64,000 nt of DNA from an uncultured Gemmatimonadales bacterium (GTDB taxonomy: Bacteria; Gemmatimonadota; Gemmatimonadetes; Gemmatimonadales; GWC2-71-9): assembly GCA_963821525.1 (NCBI GenBank), contig CAWGED010000004.1, positions 288,001 through 352,000 on the forward strand, read 5' to 3'. The notes below the pieces were generated by a model, which had not been told where the DNA came from, did not search any database, and worked only from the letters and a program-made list of their open reading frames with translations. A program made the translations under genes and the position numbers. Positions 6,855 through 56,417 of this stretch are shown here, piece after piece; positions within the stretch are counted from its first letter, which is position 1, and every line of letters begins with the position of its first letter.

Positions 6855-6967
6855 GTCTTGGGTCTAAGGTCTTGAGTCTAAGGTCTAGAATCCAAATCGC
6901 TCGGACGTCTCATGTCGCATCTCACGTCTCACGTCTCACGTCTCACGTCTCACGTCTCACGTCTCAC
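6855..6967. repeat. Two heptamer arrays: GTCTWRR x5 (6855-6889) and TCTCACG x6-7 (6920-6967)
   Basis: Read directly; the second array contains the stop codon of the ArsR gene. Confidence 0.95.
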
Positions 6968-7903
6968 AGCCGCCGCCACAAACAATCCCGGTCCTTTGGC
7001 CTTCGGATCAGACGGAATCGGTGCATAGCGGCACGACTCGAACCCTGCTTCCTCCATCCAGGGAACGATCTGCTTCGCCGCGAAGCCTTGCCACAGGTGC
7101 CCCATCGTCTGGCGGTACTCAGCGTGATCGTGGGGCTGCATGTCTACCACGATAAGCCGCCCGCCCGGACGAATGACTCGCGCGGCTTCCGCGAAGACCG
7201 CGATCGGCTCCGCCACGTAGGGGAGCACCAGCGCCAGCACCGCGAGATCCAGCTCGCCGTCCTGAATCGGCAATGCCTCGAGCTCGCCGCGCCGCAACTC
7301 TACGTTGGGCAGGTCCGCCACTCGGGCCTTGGCCGCTTTGAGCATCGCCGGCGACCCGTCCACCGCGATCACTCGGGAGACGAAAGGGGCTAGCGTCTGG
7401 CTGAGCTGGCCGGTTCCTGCGCCCAAGTCTCCCACGAGCCACGTCGGATCCAGCAGGCCGAGGGGCGCCAGCAACTCGGTGCGGCTGCCAAAGAGCTCTT
7501 CCCGCATCCGGTCCCACTGGCCCGCTGCGCTGGCGAAGAACTCATCCGATTGGATTCGCCGCTGCGCCAGCACCCTCCGAAGGCGATCCCCATCGCGCAG
7601 CGCAGCCGGTGTAACCGCGACCTGCTCCTTCACCAACTGCCACAACCGCCGGGCTGCAGGATCCAGATCCTGCCCCGGCATCCGGTAGTACCGGCTGGCC
7701 CCGTCCGCCCTGGAAACCACCCACCCTTCGTCGCTCAGGGTCTTCAGATGGCGGCTGACGGTGGACTGGGGCATTTGAAGGGCGCCGCACAGGTCCGTTA
7801 CCGAGAGCTCGTGGCGCTCCAGTACCAGCAACAGCCGGCACCGGGTGGCGTCGGCCAGCGACTGCAAGCGATCGAGAATCGGTGTACCCACGCCAGGCCT
7901 CAT
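6950..7903 (-). CDS. sahR: ArsR-HTH + SAM-methyltransferase-like regulator (SahR family)
   Basis: LADATRCRLL..ELSVTDL..QSTVSRHLKTL HTH; VGDLGAGTG SAM motif; directly upstream of ahcY. Confidence 0.85.
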   Translation of the reverse strand: MRPGVGTPILDRLQSLADATRCRLLLVLERHELSVTDLCGALQMPQSTVSRHLKTLSDEGWVVSRADGASRYYRMPGQDLDPAARRLWQLVKEQVAVTPAALRDGDRLRRVLAQRRIQSDEFFASAAGQWDRMREELFGSRTELLAPLGLLDPTWLVGDLGAGTGQLSQTLAPFVSRVIAVDGSPAMLKAAKARVADLPNVELRRGELEALPIQDGELDLAVLALVLPYVAEPIAVFAEAARVIRPGGRLIVVDMQPHDHAEYRQTMGHLWQGFAAKQIVPWMEEAGFESCRYAPIPSDPKAKGPGLFVAAAVRRET

Positions 7904-7920
7904 ATCCTAGTATCCGGATA
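7903..7920. promoter_or_regulatory. Imperfect palindrome TATCC-N8-GGATA at the sahR start, candidate auto-operator
   Basis: TATCCTAGTATCCGGATA abuts the ATG; TTGACG lies upstream on the minus strand. Confidence 0.4.
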
Positions 7921-7928
7921 ATCAAATA

Positions 7929-8462
7929 TTAAGGCCGGGAATCGTCAAGAGGCAGGGGGGAGTGGCGGGTTATGAGGCAGGTGGTCGTTCCGTGGGCGTA
8001 CAGCCGGCCTTCCCGGTCGGTGACGCGACCCTCCGCCGTCGCGACCCGGCCGCCAGCGTGAACCACCTTCCCTTCGGCTTCTACCGGGCCGGCGGCTGTG
8101 GTGAGGGGCCTGACCAGATTCACCTTCAATTCAAGCGTGTTGTAGCCGTCGCCCGAGGCCAGCAAGGTGGCGACGGCGCAGCCCATCGCTGCGTCGAGGA
8201 GTGCTGTAATCAGCCCACCCTGCACTACCCCGACCGGGTTGTAGAGATGCTCTCCAGGCTCGAGAACCATCACCACCCGGCCGCGTTCGGCGACTTGAGG
8301 GCGCATCCCCAGGAGGGCGCTCGACGGAGGCGCCGGAATGTCTCCGCGAATGATGGCTTGGATGAACTCAAGGCCACTCAAAGACCGGCCAAGCTCCAGG
8401 GCGGCCAGCGGATCGTACCAGGTGACGGTGCGATTCCGCGGTGGTAGTCCGTGGTCAGTCAT
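7929..8462 (-). CDS. PaaI family hotdog thioesterase
   Basis: NPVGVVQGGLITALLDAAMGCA, TLELKVNLVRP. Confidence 0.9.
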   Translation of the reverse strand: MTDHGLPPRNRTVTWYDPLAALELGRSLSGLEFIQAIIRGDIPAPPSSALLGMRPQVAERGRVVMVLEPGEHLYNPVGVVQGGLITALLDAAMGCAVATLLASGDGYNTLELKVNLVRPLTTAAGPVEAEGKVVHAGGRVATAEGRVTDREGRLYAHGTTTCLITRHSPLPLDDSRP

Positions 8463-8947
8463 GGACGCTTCATGGAGTCCTGCCGGGTCGCTGCCGGAGC
8501 GCCGCGGATGAACGCGATGTAGTCGGTCGGGTTGGGTTCCTGTCCCGAGATTCGGAGCGCCCGCGCGATCTGCCCGCGATGATAGGCTCCGTGCAGGAAA
8601 ATCTGAAGCAGGATGTCGTCCGCTCTGGAAGTGAACTGCTTCCCCGCGCTGTTCACGTAAGTGACTTCCTCGCCCATGTCCTGCTCATCCGTCGTGCCGA
8701 CATAGTCGGTAAGCTCCCGCCGATTCCGTTCGGCAAGGCGAGCGCACTCGGCCTTGCTCAGCGTCGGCCAGGTCGGCAACTCGGCAGGCCTTCTCAGAAG
8801 CCGGGAAATCCAGACATGCTCTGCGGCAAGGATATGCGCCAGCAGCTGGAGACTGTCGGGGTTCGGTTCGGATGAGCGTTCGAGTGACTCGAGTACCAGT
8901 TGGTCGGCCCAGGCCAGGTGGGCAATCAGGCGTGCCATCGATGTCAT
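8459..8947 (-). CDS. DinB family protein
   Basis: HLAWAD, HILAAE..W, HGAYHRGQI. Confidence 0.85.
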   Translation of the reverse strand: MTSMARLIAHLAWADQLVLESLERSSEPNPDSLQLLAHILAAEHVWISRLLRRPAELPTWPTLSKAECARLAERNRRELTDYVGTTDEQDMGEEVTYVNSAGKQFTSRADDILLQIFLHGAYHRGQIARALRISGQEPNPTDYIAFIRGAPAATRQDSMKRP

Positions 8948-11141: not shown

Positions 11142-11240
11142 GGAAGCTCCTACGGGAGAAAGACTTCCCCAATCTAGGCCGACCAGCCCCTACCGCCAGA
11201 GCGGGCCCTCCCTTTATAGTTGTGCGCGATTTAACTGGTC

Positions 11241-11312
11241 AGCGGTGAGCGGTGAGTGGTAAGCGGGACACGGTTCCCCCGGCCCGCTCACTGCTTACCG
11301 CTCACCGCTCAC
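11241..11312. repeat. Inverted heptamer arrays (AGCGGTG / CACCGCT) in the efp leader
   Basis: AGCGGTG AGCGGTG AGTGGTA AGCGGG ... CCCGCT CACTGCT TACCGCT CACCGCT. Confidence 0.9.
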
Positions 11313-11329: not shown

Positions 11330-11892
11330 ATGGGTATCATCGCCAGCGAAATCCGCCGCGGTATGACGCTCCTCTTCGACGGGGAGCCGGTCCGGGTCCT
11401 CGATTTCCATCACCATACCCCCGGCAACCTGCGGGCGATGGTGCAGACCAAGCTGCGGAAGCTTCGCACCGGAACCCAGTTCGAGCATCGCTTCCGGTCA
11501 ACCGATACGGTCGATACCGCCAATCTCGAGACGCATGAGCTGGAGTTCATGTACGCGGGCGGCGACTCTACCACTTCATGAATACAGAGAATTTCGACCA
11601 GCTCGAGATGAATGAAGAGGACTTGGGCGACGCGGCGAAATGGATGACCGGCGGGATGAAGCTGATCGCCGAGTATTTCAACGGTCGGCCGATCGGCATT
11701 CAGCTTCCCAACGCCCTGGTCTATGAAGTGACGGAGACCGCTCCGGTGATGAAGACCGCGACCAAGAACGCCTCGACCAAGCCAGCCATGCTGGAGAACG
11801 GGGTGTCGGTCAACGTTCCCGAATTCGTTCAGACCGGCGAGAAGGTCCGGGTCAACCCCAATACCGGCGAGTATCTCGATCGTGTGAAGTAG
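11330..11892 (+). CDS. efp: Elongation factor P, frameshift near 11565
   Basis: [44 protein letters not shown] in two frames. Confidence 0.93.
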
Positions 11893-15251: not shown

Positions 15252-15253
15252 TC

Positions 15254-29720: not shown

Positions 29721-30179
29721 ATGTCCCTGATGTTGCGCCGTTTCGCTCCTGCCAACGATCTGCTTGGCGTGCGCCGGCTGAATGCGCTGCTGGACGAGGC
29801 CTTTACTGGTTGGCCGGTTGGTAATGGAGTCGCGCCGTCCGCGTGGCTGCCGTCGGTTGACGTCTTCGAGGACAAGGAGAGCCTTAAGATCGTGGCCGAG
29901 TTGCCTGGCCTGAAGCCCGAAGATGTGAAGATCACCCTGGAGAACAGCACCCTCACCCTGCGTGGCGAAAAGAAGCAGGTCGCAGAAGAGAAGACCGAGC
30001 GGGTGCACCGCTATGAGCGGAGCTATGGCAGCTTCGAGCGGTCGTTCTCCCTGCCCAACACCGTCGATGTCGAGAAGGTGGAGGCCGGGTTCGAGAACGG
30101 GGTGCTGACGATCACCCTGCCGAAGGCGGAGAAGGCGAAGCCGCGGGAGATTGCGGTGAAGCCGGCCGTCAGCCGCTAG
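29721..30179 (+). CDS. Hsp20/alpha-crystallin small heat-shock protein
   Basis: GGAGG RBS; PSVDVFE, AELPG, ERSYGSFERSFSLP, NGVLTITLPK. Confidence 0.95.
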   Translation: MSLMLRRFAPANDLLGVRRLNALLDEAFTGWPVGNGVAPSAWLPSVDVFEDKESLKIVAELPGLKPEDVKITLENSTLTLRGEKKQVAEEKTERVHRYERSYGSFERSFSLPNTVDVEKVEAGFENGVLTITLPKAEKAKPREIAVKPAVSR

Positions 30180-30309
30180 CCGTCAGCCGTCTAGCTATTA
30201 GCTGTTAGCTGTACCTCAAATAGAAACCCTCCGTGCCATTCACCGGAGGGTTTCGTTTGTTCCGGAACCGCTAACCGCTAACCGCTAACCGCTAACGGCT
30301 GACGGCTAA
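30165..30309. repeat. Inverted heptamer arrays (GCYGTYA / AACCGCT) around a terminator
   Basis: Left 30165-30213, right 30266-30309; both flanking stop codons lie within the units. Confidence 0.92.
30223..30260. terminator. Intrinsic terminator between hsp20 and the convergent ALDH gene
   Basis: GAAACCCTCCG..CGGAGGGTTTC followed by GTTTGT. Confidence 0.8.
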
Positions 30310-31759
30310 TACCACCCGATCGGCGCCTCATCCAAATTGATGTACACCTGCTTCGTCTCCATGTACTCCTCTACACCCCAGTGGCCGAGTTCGCGGCCGA
30401 AGCCCGACATCTTGTAGCCGCCCCACGGCGCCTCCAGCATGGTGGGCTGCATGTGATTGACCCAGACCACTCCGGCCTCGAGGCTCTTCACCACCCGGAA
30501 TGCCTTGAAGATGTCACGGGTCCACACCGCCGCCGCGAGCCCGTAAGGCGTGGCGTTGGCGATCTCGATCGCTTCCGCCTCGTCTTTGAACGGGATCACG
30601 CTCATCACCGGTCCGAAGATTTCTTCCTGCGCGATCTTGGCGTTGTTGTCCACGTCGTAGAAAATGGTAGGCTCGACGTACCAGCCCTTGTCGAATTGTC
30701 GGGCACACCGCCGCCCGCGGCGACCTTCGCCTCCTTCCGACCGATGGCCTGGTACTTCACCACGCGGTCTCGCTGTTCCGCGCTGACCAGCGGCCCCATC
30801 TTGGTGTCCCGCTCGATGCCCGGTCCCAGCTTGATCGTCTTGGCCTTCGCGGCGCAGGCCTCGACGAACTTCTTGTAGATGTCCTTCTGGACCAGCACGC
30901 GGCTCCCCGCTGAACAGACCTCGCCCTGGTTGATGAAGGTCCCGAACAGGGCTCCGTCCACCGCGGCTTCGAAGTCCGCATCGGAGAAGAAGATGTTGGG
31001 AGACTTGCCGCCCAGCTCCAGCGAGACTCGCTTCAGCTGATCCGAAGCGTTCCTCATGATCAGCTTGCCGACCTCGGCCGAGCCGGTGAAGGCGATCTTC
31101 CGGATGTCGGGATGGACCACGATGGGCCCGCCGGCGTCGGGGCCGAGTCCGGTAACGATGTTCACGACACCCGGTGGAAGCCCGATCGCCTCGAAATCCT
31201 TGGCAAGGTCGAGCAGGGAGAGCGGCGTCTGCTCGGCGGGCTTGATGACCACCGTGCAGCCGGCCGCCAGGGCGGGTCCGAGCTTCCAGGCGGCCATCGC
31301 GAGCGGGTAGTTCCAGGGGATGATCTGCCCGGCGACACCCATCGGCTCCTTCACCGCGAGCACCATGGCGTTGGTCGGAACCGGAATCACTTCGCCGTTG
31401 ATCTTGGTGGCGAGCCCGCCGTAGTACTCGAAGCAGGTCGCCGAATCATCCATGTCGTATTCGGACTCGACGATCGGTTTGCCGGAGTTGAGGGTTTCGA
31501 TCTTGGCCAGCTCGTCCCGTCGGGCCCGGACCCGTTCGGCGAGCCGGATCAGGATTCGGCCTCGCTCCTGGGCGGAGGTGTTCTTCCATCCTCCATAGAA
31601 CGCCTTCTTGGCCGCCTGAGCCGCCTTGTCGATGTCCTTTGCGTCTCCGGCGGGGCAGGTGGCGATCACTTCCTCGGTGGCGGGATCGTAGACGTTGAAG
31701 GTCTTGCGGCTGGTCGCGTCGACGAATTTTCCGTTGATGAACATTTGGTACTTGCTCAC
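30306..31759 (-). CDS. Aldehyde dehydrogenase (betaine/aminobutyraldehyde type), frameshifts near 30660-30700
   Basis: IIPWNYP, KPAEQTP, FTGS, LELGGKSP, QGEVCSAG, EEIFGP, PWGGYKMSG. Confidence 0.93.
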
Positions 31760-31769: not shown

Positions 31770-31817
31770 GAGTCGGAGAGTCTGAAGTCTGAAGTCTGGA
31801 GTCTGGAGTCTGGAGTC
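31770..31817. repeat. RAGTCTG x5-6, left flank of the four-helix-bundle gene
   Basis: Read directly; ends at the ALDH RBS on the minus strand. Confidence 0.95.
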
Positions 31818-31915
31818 AAAGACAGCTCGCCATCCATCATTGGAGGCCGCGTATTTATGCCTACCGGTGCAATCGAAGGATTAGCTCCATCAATACTCCA
31901 GGGGCAGCTTCAGAG

Positions 31916-32296
31916 ATGGGCGATTTCAAGAGCCTTCGCGTCTGGAAACGATCCTATGCTCTGAGTCTCGGCGTCTACAGAGCAACGAAAGACTTCCCGG
32001 CCTCAGAATTGTACGGCATGACTTCCCAGCTTCGACGCGCGGCCGTCTCTATCGTATCCAACATTGCCGAGGGATGCGGCCGAGCCGGAGACCCGGATTT
32101 GAGACGATTCCTGAAGATTGCGCGCGGGTCGCTTTTCGAGGTGCAATGTCAGCTCTTGCTCGCCGTAGATCTAGGGTACGGTAATAAAGACTTGCTCGCT
32201 CAACTCGAACTCGAAACACGCGAGATCAGCCTGATGCTCCACTGTCTGATTCGGTCTCTGAAGTCGGGAGTAGGGGGTCGGGGCTCGGGAGTCTGA
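31916..32296 (+). CDS. Four helix bundle protein (23S rRNA intervening-sequence protein/Avd-like family)
   Basis: FKSLRVWKRS..VYRATKDFP..ELYGMTSQLRRAAVSIVSNIAEGCGR..FLKIARGSLFEVQCQL. Confidence 0.95.
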   Translation: MGDFKSLRVWKRSYALSLGVYRATKDFPASELYGMTSQLRRAAVSIVSNIAEGCGRAGDPDLRRFLKIARGSLFEVQCQLLLAVDLGYGNKDLLAQLELETREISLMLHCLIRSLKSGVGGRGSGV

Positions 32297-32345
32297 AGTC
32301 GGGGAGTCTCCAGACCCCAGACTCCAGACTCCAGACTCCAGACTA
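32255..32345. repeat. Right flank: degenerate RRGTCGG x6-7 followed by inverted CCAGACT x5
   Basis: Read directly; CCAGACT is the reverse complement of the left-flank AGTCTGG. Confidence 0.95.
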
Positions 32346-33933
32346 GCTGTCCCTCAAAATCTCCCTTGCCGCATTGTATCCACACGCTCCCATGACCCCG
32401 CCGCCGGGATGGGTCGCGGCGCCGCACATGTATAGCCCCTTGATCGGAGTACGGTAATCGGCGTAGCCGGGAACCGGCCGCATGAACGAAAGACTGGACA
32501 GCGACATCGTTCCCTGCATGATATTTCCGCCGGTCAGTCCGAAGCGGGTCTCGAGATCGGCCGGGGCGAGCACCTGGTAGTTGATCACCGCTTTCCGGAA
32601 GTTCGGCGCGTACTCCGTCATGATGTCGATGCAGCGCTCGGCATAACGCTTCTTGTTTTCCTCCAGAGTTCCCGCATCCGGCGCGAGCTTGTAGGGGAAA
32701 TACTGGGTGAACATCGACATCACGTGCTGCCCCTTGGGAGCCACCGTGTCGTCCAGCGAACTGGGGATCGTAGCCTCGACGATCGGATTCTCCGAGATGT
32801 AGCCGTACTTGGCGCGATCGAATGCCTTCTCGATGTAGTCCCGGGTGGGGCAGAGGTGGATCGTGCCGCGGTGCTGAGGTCCCGCGGTATTCCCGGGCAG
32901 ACAGGTGAAATTCGGCACCTCGGACAGCGCCAGGTTCACCTTGCAGCTCGCGCTGGCGTAGTCGAGATGGCGGACCGAATCCGCAAAGTCGGTCGGCAGC
33001 TCCTTGGGATCCATCAGCTGCAGGAAGGTGACGTGCGCGTCGACTGAAGACACGACCTTTGCGGCCCGATACTCGGTGCCATCCTTCATCGCTACTCCGA
33101 CAGCGCGCCCACCGTTGGTGAGAATTCTGGCGACCGGGGCATTCACCTTGATCTCGGCGCCTTTTTCCTTCGCGGCGGACGCGATCGCGTTACTGAGTCC
33201 ACCCATCCCGCCGCGCACGTATCCCCAGACTCCGCGTACCCCGTCGCACTCACCCATCACGTGGTGGAACAGCACATAGGCCGTTCCCGGCATCGAAGGA
33301 GTGGCGAAAGCGCCGATGATCGCATCGGTGGCGATCGTCGCCTTGACCTCTTCCGATTCGAACCAGCGATCGAGGATCGGATTGGCGGCGCCGGTAAGAA
33401 TCTCGACCGCCTTCTGTCCGTCGGTGCCGAGTTTCTTGAAGGCGAGTCCCAGCTTGAGCAATTGAAGCAGGTTGCCCGGCGCCATGGACCAGGGATTGGG
33501 CGGGGTCTGGACCAGCGTCGGCTCCAGGAAGTCGGCGACTCGCTCCAGCATCGCCTCATACTTGGGAAGCGCCTCGGCATCCTTCTTCGAAAACTTGGAT
33601 ACCTCCCGGTGAGTCATCTCCTTGTCGGGACCCATCAGGAGATACCGGCCGTCGGGGAACGGGCGTGAAGCTCGACGGGCTCCGGGGCAACATGGCGAAG
33701 CCGTGCCGCTTGAGCTCCAGGTCTCGAATGATCTCGGGACGGAAGAGGCTGTTGACGTAGCTGGCAGTCGAGACCTTGAAGCCGGGCCAGAGCTCCTCGG
33801 TCACGGCGCAGCCGCCGACCAACTCGCGCCGCTCGAGAACCAGCACCTTGCGTCCGGCGCGGGCGAGATATGCGGCGGTGACCAAGCCGTTATGGCCACC
33901 GCCGATGATGATGGCATCGTATTGGTTGGACAT
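32343..33933 (-). CDS. Phytoene dehydrogenase-like FAD oxidoreductase, frameshift near 33660
   Basis: YDAIIIGGGHNGLVTAAYLA, VRGGMG, LTGGNI, LYMCGAATHPGGGVMG. Confidence 0.9.
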
Positions 33934-33976
33934 CGGAGTCTTCAACATTTGAATGGTGATGGGGTGACAACCAGGA

Positions 33977-34057
33977 GCCGCAGGCCGTACGCCATAAGCC
34001 TTAAGCCGTTGCCCAAGCGTCAAGAGCTTAAGGCTTTACGGTGTAAGGATTATGGCT
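33977..34057. repeat. Degenerate inverted heptamer arrays (GCCNTAA / TTANGGC)
   Basis: GCCGCAG GCCGTAC GCCATAA GCCTTAA ... TTAAGGC TTTACGG TGTAAGG ATTATGGC. Confidence 0.75.
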
Positions 34058-34176: not shown

Positions 34177-34259
34177 AATTGCAGATTGAAGATTTCAGAT
34201 TGAAGATTTAAGGAACTTCTGCCTGCAAATCTTCAATCTGAAATCCTCAATCTTCAATC
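34177..34259. repeat. Inverted heptamer arrays (GATTGAA/GATTTCA vs TTCAATC/TGAAATC)
   Basis: Near-perfect ~30 bp stem; contains the potC stop. Confidence 0.93.
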
Positions 34260-35087
34260 GCTTGTCTTGTCTCTCATCAGTCTCGCCCACACCCAAATCA
34301 CCACGACCGAGACCAGGAAGATCACGGTGCCGATTGCATTCACTTCTGGTGTGATCCCGCGGCGGAGCTGACCCCAGATCTGGAGCGGCAGCGTATTCTG
34401 GCGGCCGATGAGGAAGAATGTCACCGCGATCTCATCGAGACTCAGGGTGAACACCAGGAGCCCGGCCCCCAGCACCGCAGAGCGGATGTTAGGCAGGGTG
34501 ACAAGCCAGAACGTCTTCCATTCGCTGGCGTAGAGGTCCTGACTCGCTTCCTCAAGCGCGCGGTCGAATCGCTGCAACCGGGCGTACACCTGGGTCACTA
34601 CCACCGAGGTGAGCGCCGCGCCGTGACCCAATACCACGGGCCAGCCTGGGATGATGGGGAATCCGCTCGAAAGGCTCAGCCCGATAAACGAGAAATAAGT
34701 AAGGAGAGCGACTCCAGTGATGATGCCGGGGAGAATCAGCGGCAGAAGGACCAGGCGGCGAAAGGCGGCCTTTCCCGGAAACTCGAGCCGGTCAAGCGCG
34801 AACGCGCCGGGCACCCCCACCAGGAGCGCAATCACCACCGCCAGCAGCGCGAGTTTTGCGCTGGCCAGCGTCGCCGCGATCATGCCGCGATCGTGCGCCA
34901 GGTCCACGAACCAATGGAGCGTGAAAGGCCGGAACGGCCAGGCCACGATGCTCGAGTCGTGGAAGGCGTAGAGCACCACGACCACGAGCGGGAGATAGAT
35001 GAACGCAAAGACCGCGGCTCCCGCGGTCCAGAGCGCGCTGGACCACCAGTCAGTGCCGGGAGCCTCGGCGACCCGGGTCGCGCTCAC
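34254..35087 (-). CDS. potC: Polyamine ABC permease
   Basis: [33 protein letters not shown]. Confidence 0.88.
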   Translation of the reverse strand: MSATRVAEAPGTDWWSSALWTAGAAVFAFIYLPLVVVVLYAFHDSSIVAWPFRPFTLHWFVDLAHDRGMIAATLASAKLALLAVVIALLVGVPGAFALDRLEFPGKAAFRRLVLLPLILPGIITGVALLTYFSFIGLSLSSGFPIIPGWPVVLGHGAALTSVVVTQVYARLQRFDRALEEASQDLYASEWKTFWLVTLPNIRSAVLGAGLLVFTLSLDEIAVTFFLIGRQNTLPLQIWGQLRRGITPEVNAIGTVIFLVSVVVIWVWARLMRDKTSD

Positions 35088-36064: not shown

Positions 36065-37196
36065 CCGGCCATGTGATGGTCAGAGTAGCATCCCGTTCGG
36101 GCGGCGGCTGTTCCGCGGGCCAATGCAGCACCAGGGAACCGGCACCCTCCACCGTCGTGTGTACCCGGGTTATCACACCGGTAAAAATCACATCTACCAC
36201 CCGAACCGGCAGCCAATGGGAACCATCGCCCGAGGTGACCGCATAAACGTGCTCCGGGCGTACGGCCAGCCAGGCCGGCTTACCCTCTTCCCACGACTTG
36301 GTCGCGGTGGCATCGAACTCGCGCCCCCCAATCGTGAGCCGGGCGGCCGAGCCGCCCAACCGCCGAGCCGCGGTCGTCTGCAGGAGATTGGTCTCACCAA
36401 TGAAATCAGCGACGTAACGGGAAACCGGCTCCTCGTACATCTCGCGTGGTCCACTCAACTGCTCGATCCGTCCGTTCCGCATCAGGGCGATGCGGTCGGA
36501 CATCGTAAGCGCCTCTTCCTGATCGTGGGTCACGTAAATGAAGGTGATCCCCAACCGCTTGTTGAGCTGTTTCAATTCGAGCTGCATCTCCTTGCGCAGC
36601 TTCAAATCGAGTGCGCCGAGCGGCTCGTCCAGCAGTAGGACCCGGGGGCGATTGACCAGGGCTCGGGCGAGCGCGACACGTTGCTGTTGCCCTCCGGAGA
36701 GTTGGCGGGGGGCCCGCTCTCCCAGATGACCGAGCTGGACCATCTGCAGCGCCTCTTCCACCCGCTTCCCGATTTCCGCTTTGGGGACTCCCCGCATGCG
36801 CAGGCCGTATCCCACGTTGTCCCGCACACTCATGTGAGGGAACAGCGCATAGGACTGGAACACGGTATTGATGTCCCGCTTGAAGGGAGGGAGCGGCGTG
36901 ATCGACGTGCCCTCCATCAGAATTTCGCCGGACGTCGGCCGCTCGAATCCGGCGATCATGCGCAGCGTCGTGGTCTTTCCCGAACCCGAAGCGCCGAGGA
37001 AGGTCAGGAACTCTCCGGCCGCGATATCGAGCGAGAGATCATCGACGGCGGTGAACGCGTCGAAGCGCTTGATGAGGTGGCGGAGCTCGAGAATGGACGG
37101 GATGATGCGGCTCAGAGCTGAAGGTTGTGGGTAGTGGGTGGTGGGTGGTGAGGGTGAAGGCCAAGGTTCCAGGACCCCACCACCTGCCACCCACAA
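36036..37196 (-). CDS. potA: Polyamine ABC ATPase (start uncertain, conserved part begins near 37100)
   Basis: [47 protein letters not shown]. Confidence 0.92.
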
Positions 37197-37207
37197 CCGA
37201 CTACCTA
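37123..37207. repeat. Inverted heptamer arrays (GGTDGTG / CACHACC)
   Basis: Read directly; starts at the stop of the binding-protein gene on the minus strand. Confidence 0.88.
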
Positions 37208-38552: not shown

Positions 38553-39905
38553 ATGCCCCCCGTGATTGATCTCAAGACGGCCATTCCCGGCCCCAAGAGC
38601 CAGGCCCTGAACGCCCGCCGTGCCAAGGCAGTTCCCCGCGGCGTGCCTTCAACTACACCGCTTGCCGTAGTCCACGCAGAGAACGCCGTTTTAACCGACG
38701 CGGACGGGAACCGGCTGATCGACTTCGGTGGCGGCATCGGTGTGGTGAACGCCGGCCACCGGAATCCCCGGGTGGTCGAAGCGGTCCGGCAGCAGCTGGA
38801 TCACTTTACTCACGTCTGCTTTCCGGTCTCCACCTACGAGCCTTACGTGGAGCTGGCCGAGAAGCTCAACGCGCTCACCCCCGGGGGACACGAGAAGCGC
38901 ACCTTCTTCGTGAACAGCGGGGCGGAGGCGGTGGAGAATGCCGTGAAGGCGGCCCGCCATTTCACCGGCCGCCAGGCGATCGTCTGTTTCGAGCACGCCT
39001 TCCATGGGCGCACCTATCTCGCCATGGCACTCACTTCGAAGGTGATGCCGTACAAGAAGGGCTTCGGGCCGTTCGCGCCCGAGGTTTACCGGATGCCGTT
39101 TCCCTACTGCTACCGCTGTGCACAGGGCGGACAGGGCGGGAAGGGTGGAGGTGGCTCGTGCTGCATGGCGAGCCGCGAATACCTGGAGCAACAGTTCGCG
39201 GCGATGGTGGACCCGCAGTCGGTCGCGGCGATCATCATGGAGCTGGAGCTGGGCGAAGGCGGCTTCGTTCCGGCACCGCCCGAATTCGTAAAGACCCTCG
39301 CGGCTTTCGCGAAGGATCACGGAATCCTGTTTATCGCCGACGAGATTCAGACCGGATTCGGGCGCACTGGGAAGATGTTCGCCAGCGAACACTACGGTCT
39401 GGTGCCCGATCTGATGACGACGGCCAAGTCATTGGCGGGCGGGTTGCCGCTCGCCGCGGTCACCGGCCGGGCCGACGTTCTTGAGTCGGCGCAGCCGGGT
39501 GGGCTGGGCGGTACCTATGGTGGGAACCCGCTGGCCTGCGCGGCAGCGCTCGCGGTACTCGACGCCATGAAGGAAGATCGGCTGGCCGAGCGCGGGGCGA
39601 AGATCGGAGAGCGAATTCGTGTCCGCTTCCAGAAATGGGCAGATCGCTTCCCCCAGGTAGGCGACGTCCGGGGACTCGGCGGAATGATCGCGGTGGAGCT
39701 GGTCACCGACCGGACAACCAAGGCCCCCGCCAAGGAGTTGACCGGCAAGCTCCTCGCGGAGGCACTCAAGCGCGGTGTGATCCTGCTCTCCGCCGGCACG
39801 CTGGGGAACGTGGTGCGAGTGCTGGTCCCGCTCACGGTAGAGGACGCGGTACTGGATGAAGGGCTGGATGCGATGGAGCGGGCGCTCGAGGTGGTGGTGG
39901 GGTGA
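38553..39905 (+). CDS. gabT: 4-aminobutyrate aminotransferase
   Basis: DFGGGIGV, NSGAEAVENAVK, FHGRT, DEIQTGFGRTG, AKSLAGG, GGLGGTYGGNP. Confidence 0.9.
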   Translation: MPPVIDLKTAIPGPKSQALNARRAKAVPRGVPSTTPLAVVHAENAVLTDADGNRLIDFGGGIGVVNAGHRNPRVVEAVRQQLDHFTHVCFPVSTYEPYVELAEKLNALTPGGHEKRTFFVNSGAEAVENAVKAARHFTGRQAIVCFEHAFHGRTYLAMALTSKVMPYKKGFGPFAPEVYRMPFPYCYRCAQGGQGGKGGGGSCCMASREYLEQQFAAMVDPQSVAAIIMELELGEGGFVPAPPEFVKTLAAFAKDHGILFIADEIQTGFGRTGKMFASEHYGLVPDLMTTAKSLAGGLPLAAVTGRADVLESAQPGGLGGTYGGNPLACAAALAVLDAMKEDRLAERGAKIGERIRVRFQKWADRFPQVGDVRGLGGMIAVELVTDRTTKAPAKELTGKLLAEALKRGVILLSAGTLGNVVRVLVPLTVEDAVLDEGLDAMERALEVVVG

Positions 39906-40025
39906 TCGTCGATGGTCGATAGTCGATGGTCGATGGCCGCGAGTCTTGAGTCGCGATTCCATTAACTCTCGGCCACCCTCCAAGCCTGACGACCCGAGAC
40001 CATCGACCATCGACCATTGACCATG
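39903..40025. repeat. Inverted heptamer arrays (CGATGGT / GACCATC) running from the gabT stop to the next ATG
   Basis: TGATCGT CGATGGT CGATAGT CGATGGT CGATGGC ... GACCATC GACCATC GACCATT GACCATG. Confidence 0.95.
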
Positions 40026-41371: not shown

Positions 41372-42621
41372 ATCTGTGGACCGCCACTACCGCCCCGCTC
41401 AACATCACGTCACTAGCGAGCCCGCCGGAACGTGCCGACGTGGCGATCGTGGGCGGCGGCTACACTGGAATGTCGGCGGCTCGCAGCCTGGCGAGCCACG
41501 GTGCGGACGTTGTCGTGCTGGAGCAGGAGACTTTGGGCTGGGGAGCCAGCTCGCGGAATGGCGGGTTCGTGTTGCCCGGCTACAAGGCCGAAGTTGCCGC
41601 TCTCGCCAGGCGGTTCGGCCTCGAGCGGGCCCGCGCGCTCTGGCGATTCTCGCTCGACGCGGTGGATTTCGTCGAGCGGGTGATCGCCCAGGAGCACATC
41701 GAGTGTGATTTCAGGCGCTGCGGCCACGTCGCACTCGCCGCGCGACCTTCGCACGTCAAGGAACTCGAACGAGAGCGCCTCCTGCTGCAGGAGCGCTTTG
41801 GCCACGATACCGTCTTGCTGGATCGCGCGCAGGTTCGCCAGGAGATCGGCTCATCCCGTTACTACGGCGGCCTGCTGGATCCCGCAGCCGGGGGGCTGCA
41901 GCCCGCTGCCTACTTCGCAGGTCTCGCTCGTGCCGCGGTACGAGCCGGTGCCAGGACGGTCGAGCGCTGTGAGGTGCGGAGAATCCGCCGGCAGGGCGAC
42001 GGGTTCGAGCTCGACACGGCGCGGGGAGTGGTGCGGTCGCGCGAGGTACTGGTCGCGACGAACGGGTATGGAGGCCGCGTGCTACCCGACTTGGCCCGCC
42101 GGGTGATTCCCATCGGCAGTTTCATCATCGCGACCGTGCCGCTGGAGGAAGAGATTGCGCTCCGCCTGGTGCCTCGTGGTCGAGTGCTGAGCGATACCAA
42201 GAACCTGCTGTACTATTTCCGGGTTTGGAACCGCCGCCTGGTGTTCGGCGGTCGCGCATCCTTCGCCGCCGATGCGGAGCGGCAGAGCCGGAACATCCTC
42301 CGGCGAGGGATCGAAGAGGTCTATCCCGAGATTGCGCACGCCCCGATCGAGTATTCCTGGGGCGGCCAACTGGGTTTCGCTCTGGACTATCTGCCGCACG
42401 CCGGCACCTTCCAAGGGGTGCACTACGCCCTGGCCTACGCCGGCCACGGCGTCGCCCTCGCCAGTTATCTAGGACATCGGATGGGGGAGCTGCTGGCGGG
42501 CAAGGGAGAACGACCTCCGATCTGGGGCCTCCCCTTTCCAGCGGTTCCGCTCTATCACGGAAGGCCCTGGTTCCTGCCGATTGCGGGGGCGTACTTCAGG
42601 TTGCGGGATTGGGTGGGGTGA
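41368..42621 (+). CDS. FAD-dependent amine oxidoreductase (PuuB/DadA family)
   Basis: ATGA overlap; DVAIVGGGYTG, GASSRNGG, LVATNGY, YAGHGV. Confidence 0.88.
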   Translation: MNLWTATTAPLNITSLASPPERADVAIVGGGYTGMSAARSLASHGADVVVLEQETLGWGASSRNGGFVLPGYKAEVAALARRFGLERARALWRFSLDAVDFVERVIAQEHIECDFRRCGHVALAARPSHVKELERERLLLQERFGHDTVLLDRAQVRQEIGSSRYYGGLLDPAAGGLQPAAYFAGLARAAVRAGARTVERCEVRRIRRQGDGFELDTARGVVRSREVLVATNGYGGRVLPDLARRVIPIGSFIIATVPLEEEIALRLVPRGRVLSDTKNLLYYFRVWNRRLVFGGRASFAADAERQSRNILRRGIEEVYPEIAHAPIEYSWGGQLGFALDYLPHAGTFQGVHYALAYAGHGVALASYLGHRMGELLAGKGERPPIWGLPFPAVPLYHGRPWFLPIAGAYFRLRDWVG

Positions 42622-42628
42622 GCGGATT

Positions 42629-42656
42629 AGCCGTCAGCCATAAGCCACAGGCCTTG
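42629..42656 (+). repeat. Single degenerate heptamer array AGCCNNN x4
   Basis: AGCCGTC AGCCATA AGCCACA GGCCTTG. Confidence 0.6.
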
Positions 42657-42685
42657 AGGGCGGATTTTTCTCCATAGGGAATTCA

Positions 42686-43821
42686 TTGAGCGCACTTCGC
42701 GACGTGAAAGACCTGATCGAAGACCTCGAGCGAGGCGGGATTTCGCGCCGCGAGTTCGTGACACGCGCCGCGGCATTTGGACTGGGTCTCGGTGCGATCG
42801 GTGGCCTGCTTACCGCTTGTCGGGGATCCGGGAAGGGAGCTCACGGCGAAAGCCCCGAATTGGGACCGATCGAGAAAGAGCTGAGCATCTACAACTGGTC
42901 CGACTACATCGCCGAGGGAGACCGTTCCCAACTTCGAGAAGGAATTCGGCGTCAAGGTCACCTACGAGCAGTACGAGAGCAACGAGGAAATGCTGGCTCG
43001 CCTCGAGAGCGGGCAAGCCGGCTACGACATCATAGTGCCGTCCGGCTATGTCGTACCCGTTCTCCTGGCCAAGGGCCTCATCGCCCCGATCAACCAGAAT
43101 TTCCTTACCAACTGGACCAACGTCGCGCCAATCTTCCTCGATCCTCCGTTCGATCCCGACAATGCCCACACCGTGCCCTGGCAATGGGGGACCACCGGTC
43201 TGGCCTATCGGACCGACAAGATCAACCCTCCTCCCGATAGCTGGGCCGCATTCCTCGATCCGAAGTTGAAGGGCAGGATGACCCAGATGGACGACGAACG
43301 CGAGGTCATCGGCGCGTGGCTCCACTACCGGGGGCATTCCCTCAATTCGACCGAACCCGGAGACCTCGCGGCGGCCAAGGCGGATGCCATCTCGGCCAGA
43401 GCCAATCTCAAGGGCTACATCTCCGCACCGGTCAAGGAGCAACTGATTTCGGGTGAGGTATGGCTCGCCCAACTGTGGAACGGCGATACAGCGCAGGCGC
43501 GGGCAAAGCAGCCCAATCTGGACTACCGGCTCCCCAAGGAAGGGGGCACGATCTGGACCGATAACCTGGCCCTTACCAGCTCTGCCCTACACAAGCGGGC
43601 GGCGCATGAGTTCATGAACTACGTCCTTCGGCCGGAAGTGGGTGCCGCCATCTCAAACTTCACCGGCTACGGAACGCCTAACCAGGGTGCCATGGAGAAG
43701 ATGACCAACCCAGTCCCGTTCCCGACGGCGGACGAGATGAAGCGCCTCGAATATCAGAAGGACCTGGGTGACGGCGGCTGCGCTCTGGGATCAGATCTGG
43801 AGTGAGATCAAGAACGCATAG
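42686..43821 (+). CDS. PotD/PotF binding protein with Tat-lipoprotein signal, frameshifts near 42920 and 43775
   Basis: SRREFV..LTAC; LSIYNWSDYI; YDIIVPSGY; WGTTG; WNGD; PKEGGTIWTD. Confidence 0.88.
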
Positions 43822-43835: not shown

Positions 43836-45186
43836 GTGCGGTTGCCCGACAGTGAGGTCCTGAAGCAGAGCGAGCGCTACCTCCGGCTTATCGGCGGGGC
43901 GGAAATGTCATTGGAGGAAAAGCAGGCCTTCATCACCGAGACGGTGGAGGCCTACGAGCAGTACGTCAACCGCGGGTTCATCGGCTACCGCAAGTCGGTC
44001 ACCGAGGCCGGACAGTTCGCGGCGCTGGAATGGTCGGGCCAGGGTTCCTTTGCTGCGGGATCTCCTCGGCCGGGAATACATCGACTGCCTGGGCGGGTAC
44101 GGCATCTTCAGCGCGGGGATCAACCACCCGAAGATCGTGAAGGCGGTGACCGACCAGATGCAGCGGATGGCGCTCAACAGCCAGGAGCTGCTGGAGCCGT
44201 GGCGGGCCGCACTCGCCCGGTTGCTCTCGGCGGTTACTCCCGGACGACTCCAGAACTGCTTCTTCATCAACAACGGAACCGATGCCATCGAAGGCGCGAT
44301 CAAGCTGGCCCGCCTTCACACTCGGCGAAATACTTTCGTCTCCACGCTGGGCGGCTTCCACGGCAAGTCGATGGGCTCGCTGTCGCTGATGGGAAAGGCC
44401 TCATTCCGGGAGCCGTTCCTGGGCGGTCTGCAGGACGTACGCTTCGTGCCCTACGGCGACGCCGAGGCGCTCGAAGCCGAGCTGGCCAAGGCGGAGCAGG
44501 TCGGCACGCCAATCGCGGCGTTCGTGGTCGAGCCGGTGCAGGGAGAGGCAGGCGGCGTGGTTCCTCCTGACGATTACCTGCCGCGGGTGCGCGATCTCTG
44601 TACCCGCTTCGGTACTCTCATGGTCGCCGACGAGATCCAGACCGGTATGGGTCGCACCGGCCGGCTCTGGGGTGTGGACCACTGGGACGTCCAGCCCGAC
44701 ATCCTCTGCGTCGGCAAGTCGATCGGCGGCGGCGTCATGCCGCTTTCCGCGTTCATCTCGACTCCCGAGATCTGGGAGGTGCTGATCCCCAATCCGATCA
44801 TCCACTCGACGACTTTCGGAGGGAATCCGATTGCCTGTGCGGCGGGAATCGCTGCGATCCAGGTGACGTTGGAGGAAGATCTGCCCGGCCAGGCCGCGAT
44901 GAAGGGAGACTTCCTCCTCGCCGAGCTGCGCGGGCTGATGCAGCGATTCCCCCAGATTCTGAGCGACGTCCACGGCAAGGGCCTGTTGATCGGAATGGAA
45001 TTCCACAGCGATCCGATCGGCTGGAAGTGCGCCTCCGGTCTGTTCAAGCGGGGCGTGCTGGTGGCCGGCACCTACTCCAAGGCCCGCACGATCCGAATCG
45101 AACCGGCCCTGGGCATCCCGATGGATCTGCTGAAGGAGATGCTGGGGAGGTTGGAGGACACGTTGAAGGAGATGGAAAAAGCGTGA
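43836..45186 (+). CDS. patA: Putrescine aminotransferase, frameshift near 44050
   Basis: YVNRGFIGYRKSVT, IDCLGGYG, FHGKSMG, EPVQGEAG, DEIQTGMGRTG, HSTTFGGNP, TIRIEP. Confidence 0.88.
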
Positions 45187-45304
45187 GACGTGAGACGTGA
45201 GACGTAAGAAAGAGAAGGGGTGGTTGAGCCGGTGATGCCGGCCCGCCACCCCTTCTCACCTCTTACTTCTCACGTCTTACTTCTCACTTCTCACTTCTTT
45301 TCTA
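45183..45304. repeat. Inverted heptamer arrays (GTGAGAC / TTCTCAC) extending a central hairpin between convergent genes
   Basis: Runs from the patA TGA to the CTA of the opposite gene; core GAGAAGGGGTGG..CCACCCCTTCTC. Confidence 0.93.
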
Positions 45305-53645: not shown

Positions 53646-54757
53646 TGCACCTCCTCCTGGTGCCCTTCCTGGTGCTGACCCTGCTGGCGTGCACCAAGAA
53701 GACCGACGCCGCGGGGAATGGAGGTCCTGGCGCTGGTGGCGGCGCTCCAGCGATGCCGGTGGAGACGGCCGTGGCGAAGCAGGACACGGTGGTTGATGCC
53801 ATCAGCGCCACCGGGCAAGTCGAGCCGGTACAGCAGATCGAGCTCCGCGCTGAGGCTGAGGGACGATTGGTCGAGATCCTGGTGCGGGAAGGTTCCGAAG
53901 TGGCCCAGGGACAGCCGCTATTTCGCATCGACGACCAGGAGCTGAAAGCCGAAGTCGCGCGGGCCGAAGCCGATCGTGACCTCGCGAACCAGTCCCTGGC
54001 CCGGGCCCAGCAGCTCACCGAGCAGAACGCATCATCTGCGGCCGACCTGGAACGCGCCGAGGCAACGGCTCGAATGAGCCAGGCTCAGCTCGATCTGCTG
54101 AAAGTTCGCCTCGCGCGCACCACGGTGCGGGCCCCGTTCGGCGGAATCTCGGGGCAGCGGTTTGTCAGTCTGGGCGACTATGTGACCACCAGCGACACGC
54201 TGGCGACTCTGCAAACGGTGAATCCCCAGCGCATCGCCTTTGCGGTGCCGGAGCGGTACGCCAGTCGATTGGGGCGCGGCCAGCGGGTCGTGTTCCGGGT
54301 CGCGTCGCTCTCTGGGCAGGAATTCCAGGGCACCGTGGATTTCGTGGACCCGGTGGTCAAGCTGCCTGCGCGCACCATTCTGGTCAAGGCGCTGGTCCCC
54401 AACGGGCGCCGTCAGCTCCAAGCCGGCATGTTCGTCGAAGTCCGCCTCGCGACCGACGTCCGGCCCAAGGCCGTCGTCGTTCCCGAAGACGCCATCGTCC
54501 CGCTGCAGCGCGCGTACTATGTCTGGGTCATCAGCGATGGCAAAGCCACCCGGCGCGAGGTTGAGATCGGTGTCCGCTCACCGGGTTTCGTCGAGATCAA
54601 GAGCGGCGTTCAGGCCGGTGAACAAGTGGTGGTCGGGGGACAGGAGCGTCTCGCCGAAGGCGCCCCCGTCATGGCGACGGTTGTCGAGCGCGGTCCGGTC
54701 ACTCCGGGAGATAGCGGCGGACCGGTCACCAAAGTGGACAGCAGCGGAAAGGACTGA
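53642..54757 (+). CDS. RND periplasmic adaptor (lipoprotein)
   Basis: LLAC; VRAPFGG, VPEDAIV, GEQVVVGG. Confidence 0.92.
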   Translation: MMHLLLVPFLVLTLLACTKKTDAAGNGGPGAGGGAPAMPVETAVAKQDTVVDAISATGQVEPVQQIELRAEAEGRLVEILVREGSEVAQGQPLFRIDDQELKAEVARAEADRDLANQSLARAQQLTEQNASSAADLERAEATARMSQAQLDLLKVRLARTTVRAPFGGISGQRFVSLGDYVTTSDTLATLQTVNPQRIAFAVPERYASRLGRGQRVVFRVASLSGQEFQGTVDFVDPVVKLPARTILVKALVPNGRRQLQAGMFVEVRLATDVRPKAVVVPEDAIVPLQRAYYVWVISDGKATRREVEIGVRSPGFVEIKSGVQAGEQVVVGGQERLAEGAPVMATVVERGPVTPGDSGGPVTKVDSSGKD

Positions 54758-54781
54758 CGGCTGGGCAAGTCACGAAGCGCA

Positions 54782-56353
54782 TTGAGCTGGATGGTGCTGG
54801 GGGCGGTGCTCGTCGGCTCGCCGCTCGCCGCACAGACCACGCGCCCGGAGCGCACTCAGTTCCGCGAGACCTCGACCCACGCGGATGTTCTGGCTTTTCT
54901 CGATTCGCTCCAGAGACTCGGCGCGGGCCTTCGGATCGGGACCCTGGGCTCGAGTCCCCAGGGACGGCGAATCCCCTACGTGATCGCCGCCCGGCCGATG
55001 GTGGATTCTCCCGGCTCGGCCCACCGCAGCGGCAAACCCATCCTGTACATCCAAGGCAACATCCACGCCGGTGAAGTCGAAGGAAAAGAAGCGGCGCAGA
55101 TGCTGCTGCGTGACCTCACGCTCGGTAACCTCCGTCCCCTGCTCGACAGCGTCATCCTGCTGGTGGTCCCGATCTACAATGCCGACGGCAACGATGACCT
55201 TGCCCCCGGGGAGAAGAACCGCCCGGGACAGAATGGTCCCGCCATCGTGGGCCGCAACACCAACGGCCAGGGTCTCAACCTCAACCGCGACTATGTGAAG
55301 CTCGAGGCCCCCGAGACTCGCGGGGCGCTGGCTCTCCTCGCGGAGTGGGAGCCCGATTTCTTCATCGATCTCCACACTACCAACGGCAGCTATCACGGCT
55401 ACGCCCTCACCTACGCGCCCGGTCTCAATCCCAACAGTGGCCCAGCCAACGACTACGTGCGCGATCATTTCCTCCCGCTGATCAGAGAGCGGCTGCGCAA
55501 GCGCCACCGGGAGGAGACTTTCTGGTACGGCAACTTCCGCAATCAGAATCCCGATTCCCTGGTTCAAGGCTGGGAGACATACGATCCCCGGCCCCGGTTC
55601 GGCACCAACGCCTGGGGCTTGAAGGGACGCCTGGCGATTCTCAGCGAGGGCTACAGCAACGCGCCGTTCAAGGACCGTATCGAGGCGACCTACAACTTCG
55701 TGCGGGAAGTCCTGGCTCTCGCGGCTGAAGAGCGAACCCGGGTGCGAGCGGTGGTCGAAGCGGCGGATGAGTGGCTGCCCGACTCGGTCACTCTGCACTC
55801 CGTGCTGGGGCCGCCCACCCCGCAGGATGTGATTGCGGAAATCACCCAGCCGGATGGAGAAGGAAACGACGGTTTCGCGCGGCGCAAGCGAAGCGGTGTC
55901 TTCAAGACGATCCGGATGCCGGTCTTCGACCGCTTCGTCCCGGCTTTACGCGAGGTCAGGCCCGCCGCCTACCTGGTTCCGCCGGAGCATGCCGACCTGA
56001 TCGCTATGCTTCGTGCCCAGGGCGTCATCGTCTTCCGCGCCGGCGCATGGCGAGGCCCCGCGGAGCGGTTCACCGTGGACAGCGTGAACCTGACGACCAC
56101 CGTCTTCGAAGGCCACCGGGCGGTCGGCCTGCTCGGCCGCTGGGCTTCTGGCGAGGTCACCATGCCGGAAGGCTGGTTCTATGTTCCCACGTCCCAACGT
56201 CTTGGCGTCTTCGCCAGCTACATGCTGGAACCGATGAGCGAAGATGGCTTCGTGACCTGGAACTTCCTCGACCGGGATGTTGCGGTCGGTGCCATGTTCC
56301 CAGTGGCCCGACTCCGGCAACCGCTGGTGGCCCCGATGGAGCTGGTGCCATAG
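54782..56353 (+). CDS. M14 zinc carboxypeptidase family, exported
   Basis: NIHAGEVEG, NADG, NLNRD, DLHTTNG. Confidence 0.9.
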   Translation: MSWMVLGAVLVGSPLAAQTTRPERTQFRETSTHADVLAFLDSLQRLGAGLRIGTLGSSPQGRRIPYVIAARPMVDSPGSAHRSGKPILYIQGNIHAGEVEGKEAAQMLLRDLTLGNLRPLLDSVILLVVPIYNADGNDDLAPGEKNRPGQNGPAIVGRNTNGQGLNLNRDYVKLEAPETRGALALLAEWEPDFFIDLHTTNGSYHGYALTYAPGLNPNSGPANDYVRDHFLPLIRERLRKRHREETFWYGNFRNQNPDSLVQGWETYDPRPRFGTNAWGLKGRLAILSEGYSNAPFKDRIEATYNFVREVLALAAEERTRVRAVVEAADEWLPDSVTLHSVLGPPTPQDVIAEITQPDGEGNDGFARRKRSGVFKTIRMPVFDRFVPALREVRPAAYLVPPEHADLIAMLRAQGVIVFRAGAWRGPAERFTVDSVNLTTTVFEGHRAVGLLGRWASGEVTMPEGWFYVPTSQRLGVFASYMLEPMSEDGFVTWNFLDRDVAVGAMFPVARLRQPLVAPMELVP

Positions 56354-56417
56354 CTTGGAGCCGTCAGCCCCAACTCGGAACTCGGACTCGGTACTAGGTA
56401 CTAGGTACTAGGTACTC
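56352..56417 (+). repeat. Heptamer arrays AGCYNNN x3, AACTCGG x2-3, TACTAGG x3
   Basis: Begins at the M14 TAG; the unit drifts along the array. Confidence 0.88.

What the first reader, a model, noticed from the sequence alone, without database searches (positions are those of the whole stretch)
6855..56417. Window-wide family of heptamer tandem arrays forming intergenic hairpins, with units that vary between loci
Seen: about 12 intergenic arrays have 7-nt periodicity but different units: GTGAGAC (6920, 45183), GTCTAAG (6855), AGCGGTG (11241), AGCCGTC/AGCGGTT (30165), AGTCTGG (31778/32310), GCCATAA (33977), AGATTGA (34177), GGTGGTG (37123), CGATGGT (39903), AGCCNNN (42629), TACTAGG (56392). 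Eight loci are inverted pairs able to form 25-45 bp stems. Period and architecture are conserved while sequence is not; some units recur at distant loci. Known: heptameric repeats such as cyanobacterial STRRs exist, with unresolved origin and function. Inference: a dedicated process builds or deposits 7-nt-period inverted arms at gene junctions. The four-helix-bundle cassette would be a loaded member and the others empty or derived sites.
Basis: partly seen in the sequence, partly recalled or inferred. Interest (0 to 1): 0.85.

Follow-up and report, generated by a model that had tools for sequence, protein, structure and literature searches.

The report
Swappable heptamer hairpins at gene ends
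Hundreds of gene junctions in this soil bacterium carry facing runs of about four 7-base words that get swapped between close relatives and that also bracket a family of small four-helix-bundle genes, so these proteins likely recognise and spread them, which would give a testable origin for a long-unexplained class of bacterial repeats.

Summary
The arrays are real and genome-wide in a Gemmatimonadales-like genome: 618 period-7 arrays against 25 at period 6 and none per Mb in a Markov control. 535 of 618 are non-coding, 385 have an inverted partner (control 8), polarity is fixed, and outer ends abut stop codons. The same arms bracket PF05635/TIGR02436 four-helix-bundle (FHB) genes, mostly one word per paralogue. 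In two relatives with a single FHB hit, that gene's word is dispersed genome-wide (118 and 109 matches) and is absent from 40 and 38 of the other 40 genomes. Between 94%-identical genomes whole arm pairs are swapped, once around a conserved terminator. Empty loops hold no cassette remnants. Best reading: a REPIN/RAYT-like family whose partner is an Avd-like binding protein with no known catalytic motif. Against: 9 of 20 further FHB loci had no arms, one prediction failed, gene-count correlation is weak, no RNA-pairing signal. The repeat anatomy is already published (Xanthomonas); I found the FHB link in print only for the Coxiella rRNA insert. The scan has noted this before, in this genome and in over 70 others.

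The parts
6855..6887 (+). left (inward G-rich strand) arm, GTCTAAG/GTCTTGA words, beside the ahcY start codon
6905..6967 (-). right arm of a different family (GTGAGAC on minus), about 9 copies, overlapping the stop of the ArsR-methyltransferase gene; does not pair with the 6855 arm
11237..11312 (.). empty matched pair, GTGAGCG family, upstream of efp; same word brackets the FHB gene at C7:55994
30165..30309 (.). matched pair (AGCCGTC/AGCTGTT/AGCGGTT words) around a terminator-like hairpin conserved in four congeners, between convergent genes
31778..32344 (.). loaded cassette: AGTCTGG arms on both sides of the four-helix-bundle gene
31916..32296 (+). four-helix-bundle gene (PF05635, TIGR02436; homolog of PDB 2GSC), 126 aa, antisense to both host neighbours
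33977..34057 (.). degenerate empty pair, GCCATAA/GCCTTAA words
34178..34260 (.). empty pair, GATTGAA/GATTTCA family; right arm matches the arm of the FHB cassette at C19:291962; another family in G001, no pair in G002-G004
37123..37197 (.). empty pair, GGTGGTG/GGTAGTG words; replaced by the GGTGTCA family in G002
39903..40024 (.). empty pair, GTCGATG family, starting at the aminotransferase stop codon; bridged by short-read contigs
42629..42651 (+). single left arm, AGCCGTC family, copy number varies by 7 bases among strains
45182..45298 (.). matched pair (GTGAGAC/GTGAGAA words) around a conserved terminator-like hairpin; different arm families around the homologous core in G003 and G001
56373..56417 (-). 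single right arm, AGTACCG/AGTACCT family; its cognate FHB is seen in G001 and G002, not found in this 81%-complete genome

Best explanation
The facing runs of about four 7-base (sometimes 8-9-base) words sit at gene 3' ends, bracket the four-helix-bundle genes and are swapped between relatives, and they are likely the recognition ends of a family of small selfish elements whose four-helix-bundle protein would bind its own word and, with host repair enzymes, would write or replace arm pairs elsewhere in the genome. Shown: fixed polarity (G-rich strand pointing inward), anchoring at stop codons, length cap near 4-5 words, word-to-paralogue matching, loaded/empty and family swaps at orthologous sites, one cassette allele shared across species beyond its flanks. 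Inferred: that the protein binds the word (by homology to the XCC0516 pentamer and to Avd; a five-subunit ring could take about one word per subunit), that it acts in trans as RAYTs do on REPINs, and that host recombination or repair supplies the chemistry. Slippage then varies copy number secondarily.
For: Polarity 301 of 302 in 22 families; outer ends median 4 nt from a stop codon, 274 of 400 within 10 nt, against 45 nt from starts. Arrays on both flanks of 54 of 77 FHB rows (one is a duplicate), control 4 of 400. Single-FHB genomes: word of G036's gene 118 matches there, 0 in 40 others; G029's 109 matches; G040's word 9 matches only there. 15 of the 19 rows with 8-11-base words fall in one supported protein clade with no 7-mers. 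G000 vs G003: of 148 armed orthologous gaps 12 carry different families and 16 have arms in one genome only; two are loaded in one and empty with another word in the other. Three arm families around one homologous terminator core at 45186. Loops inside same-family pairs diverge faster than unarmed gaps (median 0.76, n=17, vs 0.94, n=186). None of 97 loops matches an FHB cassette interior beyond arm words and one 14-base GC-rich match. Variation confined to 1-3 of 7 positions in 12 families; most arms have a distinct word order, e.g. 109 of 124; 3, 4, 5, 6, >=7 words occur 263, 267, 88, 18, 18 times. Window cassette 94.9% identical to G001 (flanks 88-90%) but 75% to G003 (flanks 94-95%).
Against: No binding or mobility was measured. 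The protein has no HUH motif and no tyrosine conserved at 80%; no reverse transcriptase was found in this 81%-complete genome. Of 20 further FHB loci only 8 had arrays on both sides and 9 had none, six of them in G022 (two loci end at a contig edge). A prediction failed: none of G015's five FHB loci seen carries the GAAGCGG word it holds 23 times (85% complete), and G012 has 4 matches with no FHB hit. FHB count versus array density is weak (rho 0.41, p 0.06, 22 genomes, 18-60 kb samples for most; G031 with 8 genes had 0 in 60 kb). Protein identity predicts word similarity only weakly (rho 0.13, 24 of 500 shuffles reach it). 263 of 459 armed gaps show one arm only, 44 of 166 facing pairs mix families, and uniform arrays exceed random draws in several families, so slippage and decay contribute.
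Confidence: 0.45

Rival explanations
1. Footprint model: only the whole cassette (arm, gene, arm) moves, and empty pairs are what remains after the gene is deleted.
For: Same words and polarity in loaded and empty sites; the same junction is loaded in five genomes and empty in G002; the cassette allele appears exchanged between species.
Against: About 14 loaded versus 459 armed gaps with no intermediate remnants; loops are unrelated to cassette interiors and some hold a native terminator conserved under different arms; the empty G002 and G003 sites carry a different word from the loaded ortholog. Cassette interiors evolve fast, so old remnants could be missed.
Confidence: 0.25
2. Domesticated regulation: the arrays are binding or RNase III processing sites in mRNA that tune termination, stability or translation at gene junctions, as the stem of 23S rRNA intervening sequences does.
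For: Placement at stop codons and operon junctions; motif-like degeneracy; RNase III cuts the stem of the Coxiella insert that carries this gene family (PMC4990558, passages); Xanthomonas repeats are mostly transcribed (PMC4692102, passages).
Against: In 80 co-directional pairs G-U oppositions on the transcribed strand (54) do not exceed A-C (64); families are swapped freely at the same junction; many sites have one arm only.
Confidence: 0.15
3. No dedicated system: polymerase slippage makes 7-mer runs in tolerant gaps, template switching mirrors them into hairpins, and FHB genes merely share those gaps.
For: 7-base indels among strains; some uniform long arrays; slippage is the published hypothesis for heptamer excess (as cited in PMC4692102); FHB genes without arms exist.
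Against: It does not explain fixed polarity per word, G-rich inward strand in 52 of 62 FHB-arm words, a few words recurring at dozens of sites with the same variable positions, the mode at 3-4 words, identical neighbours no more frequent than within-array shuffles in 7 of 9 families, or single-gene genomes dominated by that gene's word.
Confidence: 0.1

Closest known systems
Intergenic heptamer repeats of Xanthomonas (GGGAATC) and Nostoc (Rehm et al. 2015, PMC4692102; passages seen); Beggiatoaceae TAACTGA repeats (PMC4679880; passages); cyanobacterial STRR (as cited there and recalled)
   Same: Heptamer words, preference for 4 units, G-rich strand just after stop codons, convergent inverted pairs, rare between divergent genes, length variation between relatives, origin unknown.
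   Different: One or two words per genome there, about 20 families here; those texts have no hit for 'four helix', 'S23', 'xcc0516' or 'intervening' in the term searches I ran, so no partner gene is named; family swapping at one site is not in the passages I saw.
ORF-bearing 23S rRNA intervening sequences (S23p / PF05635; Coxiella, PMC4990558, passages)
   Same: Same protein family inside terminal inverted repeats; tandem heptamers are reported just upstream of the Coxiella ORF; mobility by the ORF was proposed there.
   Different: Here the cassettes lie between protein-coding genes, mostly antisense, with hundreds of gene-less counterparts; RNase III excision untested.
REPIN/RAYT systems (Bertels and Rainey, PMC3337134, passages)
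   Same: Few-copy gene flanked by its own repeat group; hundreds of inverted doublets with unique spacers; singlets as decay products; several groups per genome.
   Different: Arms are tandem word arrays, not palindromes; partner is a four-helix bundle with no HUH/Y motif; hybrid pairs occur here (44 of 166) but not in SBW25; the genome's own Y1 transposase genes carry other repeats.
Avd of diversity-generating retroelements (homology to PF05635 stated in PMC10053308, passages)
   Same: Protein fold; pentameric nucleic-acid binding of Avd is recalled, not from a call.
   Different: No reverse transcriptase found in the genome; invariant adenines in the words argue against DGR-type mutagenesis.

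Membership tests
PF05635 / TIGR02436 four-helix-bundle (S23p) proteins | profile match above curated cut-off; homology to XCC0516 | tested here: met
   123.7 bits vs 33.8; 120.7 vs 24; 2GSC E 8e-23, five chains
Long heptamer intergenic repeats (Xanthomonas/STRR type) | period-7 excess in intergenic DNA, about 4 units, near stop codons, convergent pairs | tested here: met
   against passages of PMC4692102
Long heptamer intergenic repeats (Xanthomonas/STRR type) | G-quadruplex-forming G tracts | tested here: not met
   most words (e.g. AGCCGTC, GATTGAA, AGTACCG) lack a GGG run; only some families have one
REPIN/RAYT | partner gene is a HUH/Y1 tyrosine transposase | tested here: not met
   no HUH or conserved tyrosine in 74 aligned proteins; the 4 Y1_Tnp genes are not bracketed by heptamer arms
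REPIN/RAYT | inverted doublets with unique spacers, many copies, same repeat group flanking the partner gene | tested here: met
REPIN/RAYT | observed excision or transposition of doublets | tested here: inconclusive
   joints have 20-27 base sides and fit other copies of the family; presence/absence seen only between species
23S rRNA intervening sequence | located inside an rRNA gene | tested here: not met
   the 14 loci checked lie among called protein-coding genes
23S rRNA intervening sequence | excised from RNA by RNase III | not testable with these tools
   no raw RNA reads; RNA runs held only 5-10% of the words; no G-U bias
Diversity-generating retroelement | reverse transcriptase with template and variable repeats, adenine-specific change | tested here: not met
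   no PF00078 hit in the 81%-complete genome; invariant adenines in words
MITE / insertion sequence | target-site duplication and conserved internal sequence | tested here: inconclusive
   loops are unique; too few clean empty-site comparisons to judge duplications

The most novel reading that the evidence does not exclude
PF05635 proteins are the specificity factors of an undescribed kind of selfish element: each ring-shaped paralogue dictates a 7-9-base word and drives unit-wise building or replacement of inward-facing four-word arms at gene ends without being a known transposase, and this is the source of the heptamer repeats of Xanthomonas, cyanobacteria and many other bacteria.
Probability: 0.3. 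Interest if true: 0.9.

Novelty: new variant of a known kind. Interest (0 to 1): 0.7.

Why it matters
Heptamer repeats have been known to be over-represented in bacterial intergenic DNA without an accepted origin, and PF05635 is a widespread family without a function. Linking them gives each a direct experiment: a defined protein, a defined word and a defined arm length. If the protein does direct arm placement, it is a new route of sequence-programmed genome change at gene ends, with rapid turnover of stop-codon and terminator context between close relatives.

Tried and rejected
Assembly artefact: rejected. RNA-level pairing selection: no signal. Stop-codon supply as a design feature: arms carry 7.5 stop triplets per 100 nt on the inward strand against 3.5 on the other and 4.7 shuffled, but counted by distinct word it is 21 vs 14 of 62, so not claimed. 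DGR or retron-type synthesis: no RT found. RAYT as the mover: Y1 genes have their own palindromes. FHB remnants in empty loops: none; extra tblastn hits were one frameshifted cassette (C4:415357), translated arm words, and one hit inside a host gene. The reversed-genome control is not clean (reversed real arrays match short cores) and is not used. Gene-count correlation inconclusive. RNA runs held too little of the stretch to use. Ku is present but nothing ties it to the arms. Literature: no paper joining the repeats and the protein family (open-licence PMC and bioRxiv only; supplements not read). No structure or complex prediction was run: a solved homolog exists and the complex tool does not take nucleic acid partners. 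Gene boundaries come from my own hexamer gene caller, which is imperfect in this frameshift-rich assembly.
Full report
Source. The window is contig C4 of a 4.33 Mb, 81%-complete assembly. Its AhcY is 78-82% identical to Gemmatimonadales records; matching runs are soil and rhizosphere metagenomes. Several genes are split by frameshifts, which looks like long-read error (inference).

Observation. Period 7 is the only period from 4 to 13 with hits in the window at score 12 or more (10 arrays). Genome-wide there are 618 at period 7, 120 at 8, 59 at 9 and 25 at 6; 1 Mb of Markov sequence gives 0 at period 7. 535 of 618 are mostly non-coding although called genes cover 83% of the genome. 385 of 618 have an inverted partner within 700 bases, against 8 of 618 at random places. 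Eight window loci are matched pairs, one is a facing pair of two families, and three are single arms. Congeneric assemblies hold arrays at the same junctions and short-read contigs from three studies bridge the 39903 pair.

Anatomy. Each word has a fixed direction: 301 of 302 paired arms in the 22 larger families agree, and the inward strand is G-rich in 52 of 62 words at FHB genes. Where the outer neighbour ends, the arm starts a median 4 bases from its stop codon (274 of 400 within 10); where it starts, the median is 45 (46 of 277 within 10). Arms are in 121 of 444 convergent, 297 of 1750 co-directional and 41 of 524 divergent gaps. Of 459 armed gaps 263 show one arm; of 166 facing pairs 122 share a family and 44 do not. 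Arms hold 3, 4, 5, 6 or more words 263, 267, 88, 18 and 18 times (three is the detection floor). Within 12 families variation is confined to one to three positions; word order differs between most arms, and identical neighbours are no more common than after shuffling within the arm in 7 of 9 families, though uniform arms exceed random draws in several.

The partner gene. The 126-aa gene at 31916 is PF05635/TIGR02436 and homologous to the five-chain structure 2GSC. The genome has 13 hits; by eye all 13 have inverted word arrays on both sides, by fixed score 9 of 13. Their words match empty sites in the window, for example C19:291962 with 34178, C7 with 11237, C12 with 39903. 35 of 41 related genomes have the family. 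Across 77 rows with both flanks (one duplicate) 54 have arrays on both sides, control 4 of 400; these rows were weighted to the own genus and best hits. In a further 20 loci only 8 had both and 9 had none. The downstream host gene is antisense to the FHB gene in 12 of 13 cases. On a tree of 74 of 83 proteins (9 dropped for weak arrays or short length) 15 of the 19 rows with 8-11-base words form one supported clade; overall protein-to-word correlation is weak (rho 0.13 within genomes, 24 of 500 shuffles; 0.07 across genera, 18 of 500).

Gene-to-word test in other genomes. I took the word flanking an FHB gene and counted three-word patterns in 41 genomes (overlapping matches counted). G036, one FHB hit: 118 matches, 0 in the other 40. 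G029, one hit: 109, with 23 in G015, 4 in G012 and 0 in 38. G040: 9, only there. The AGTACC family: 38-110 in all five of the genus, 1 in G022, 0 in 35; its gene is seen in G001 and G002, not in this genome. Randomly sampled arrays matched an FHB word in G019, G023, G025, G026 and G029, and the main word did not match in G022 or G038. The prediction that G015 would hold a GAAGCGG-armed gene failed for the five loci seen. Gene number against array density gave rho 0.41, p 0.06 over 22 genomes; genomes without a hit had 3 arrays in 225 kb, those with hits 38 in 850 kb excluding G003. Kin are not independent.

Turnover. The window's FHB site is loaded in G000, G001, G003, G004 and G011, and empty with another word in G002. 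The cassette interior is 94.9% identical to G001, whose flanking genes are 88-90% identical, and 75% to G003, whose flanks are 94-95%, which suggests exchange between species. At 45186 a homologous terminator-like core is wrapped by three different families in five genomes. Over 880 kb of G003, 533 orthologous gaps gave 385 unarmed, 75 same family, 24 weakly same, 12 different, 16 armed in one genome only and 21 with a weak trace in the other; several of the 16 are by eye further swaps. Two sites are loaded in G000 and empty with another word in G003. Loops diverge faster than unarmed gaps (arm-edge calling adds noise). None of 97 loops resembles the interior of 82 cassette loci beyond arm words and one 14-base match.

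Mechanism. Shown: the anatomy, the word-gene association and the turnover. Inferred: that the protein binds its word, acts in trans, and relies on host repair. The lack of gene remnants and the conserved cores under swapped arms favour writing or replacing arms over insertion followed by gene loss, but fast decay of interiors keeps the footprint model alive. A regulatory RNA role has no pairing signal (54 G-U vs 64 A-C). The protein lacks HUH and conserved tyrosine; no RT was found; Y1 transposase genes have their own repeats. I put 0.45 on the trans-acting model, 0.25 on footprints, 0.15 on regulation, 0.10 on slippage alone.

Comparison. Rehm et al. (PMC4692102, passages) describe the same anatomy in Xanthomonas without a partner gene; MacGregor's Beggiatoaceae paper (author name recalled; PMC4679880, passages) finds heptamers with no evident mechanism of spread. 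The Coxiella 23S insert (PMC4990558, passages) has this gene family, terminal inverted repeats and tandem heptamers before the ORF. REPIN/RAYT (PMC3337134, passages) is the working analogy but membership fails on the transposase. Homology to Avd is stated in PMC10053308 (passages). Searches found no paper joining dispersed heptamer arrays to this family; subscription papers and supplements were not seen.

Verdict. Real, non-random and tied to a protein family of unknown function. The repeats are a known kind; the gene link and the swapping make it a new variant with a sharp experiment. The scan's earlier notes report the same link many times; they are not counted as support.

Noticed in passing
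genome C5:948723, C4:251119, C8:120644; G001 ortholog of window 42621-42700: GxxExxY (PF13366) genes are flanked by their own inverted roughly 9-base word arrays, and an empty pair of that type sits inside heptamer arms in G001: a parallel gene-plus-arm family with a nuclease-fold partner.
   Followed up: partly
genome, loops of about 12 heptamer pairs (e.g. C18:14832, C5:661258): A non-tandem palindrome family of about 45 bases is nested inside heptamer pairs; one G003 ortholog holds what looks like a small nuclease gene at such a site (family link recalled, not tested).
   Followed up: no
genome C4:375055-375220: One heptamer pair nested inside another family's pair, replaced by a third family in G003.
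   Followed up: partly
window 11330-11892, 30306-31744, 32343-34023: EF-P, aldehyde dehydrogenase and amine oxidase genes are split by frameshifts, probably sequencing errors.
   Followed up: no
genome C9:151 and C4:415167: Two similar copies of one 8-mer-armed FHB cassette with similar flanks, one at a contig end; strain duplicate or real second copy.
   Followed up: no
window 57711-58195: OmpA-family gene with thrombospondin type 3 repeats gives the 90-base tandem repeat; ordinary coding repeat.
   Followed up: yes
genome C12:7145, C1:35924, C12:49440, C19:590173: Four Y1 (RAYT/IS200-like) transposase genes, each with its own REP-like palindromes.
   Followed up: partly
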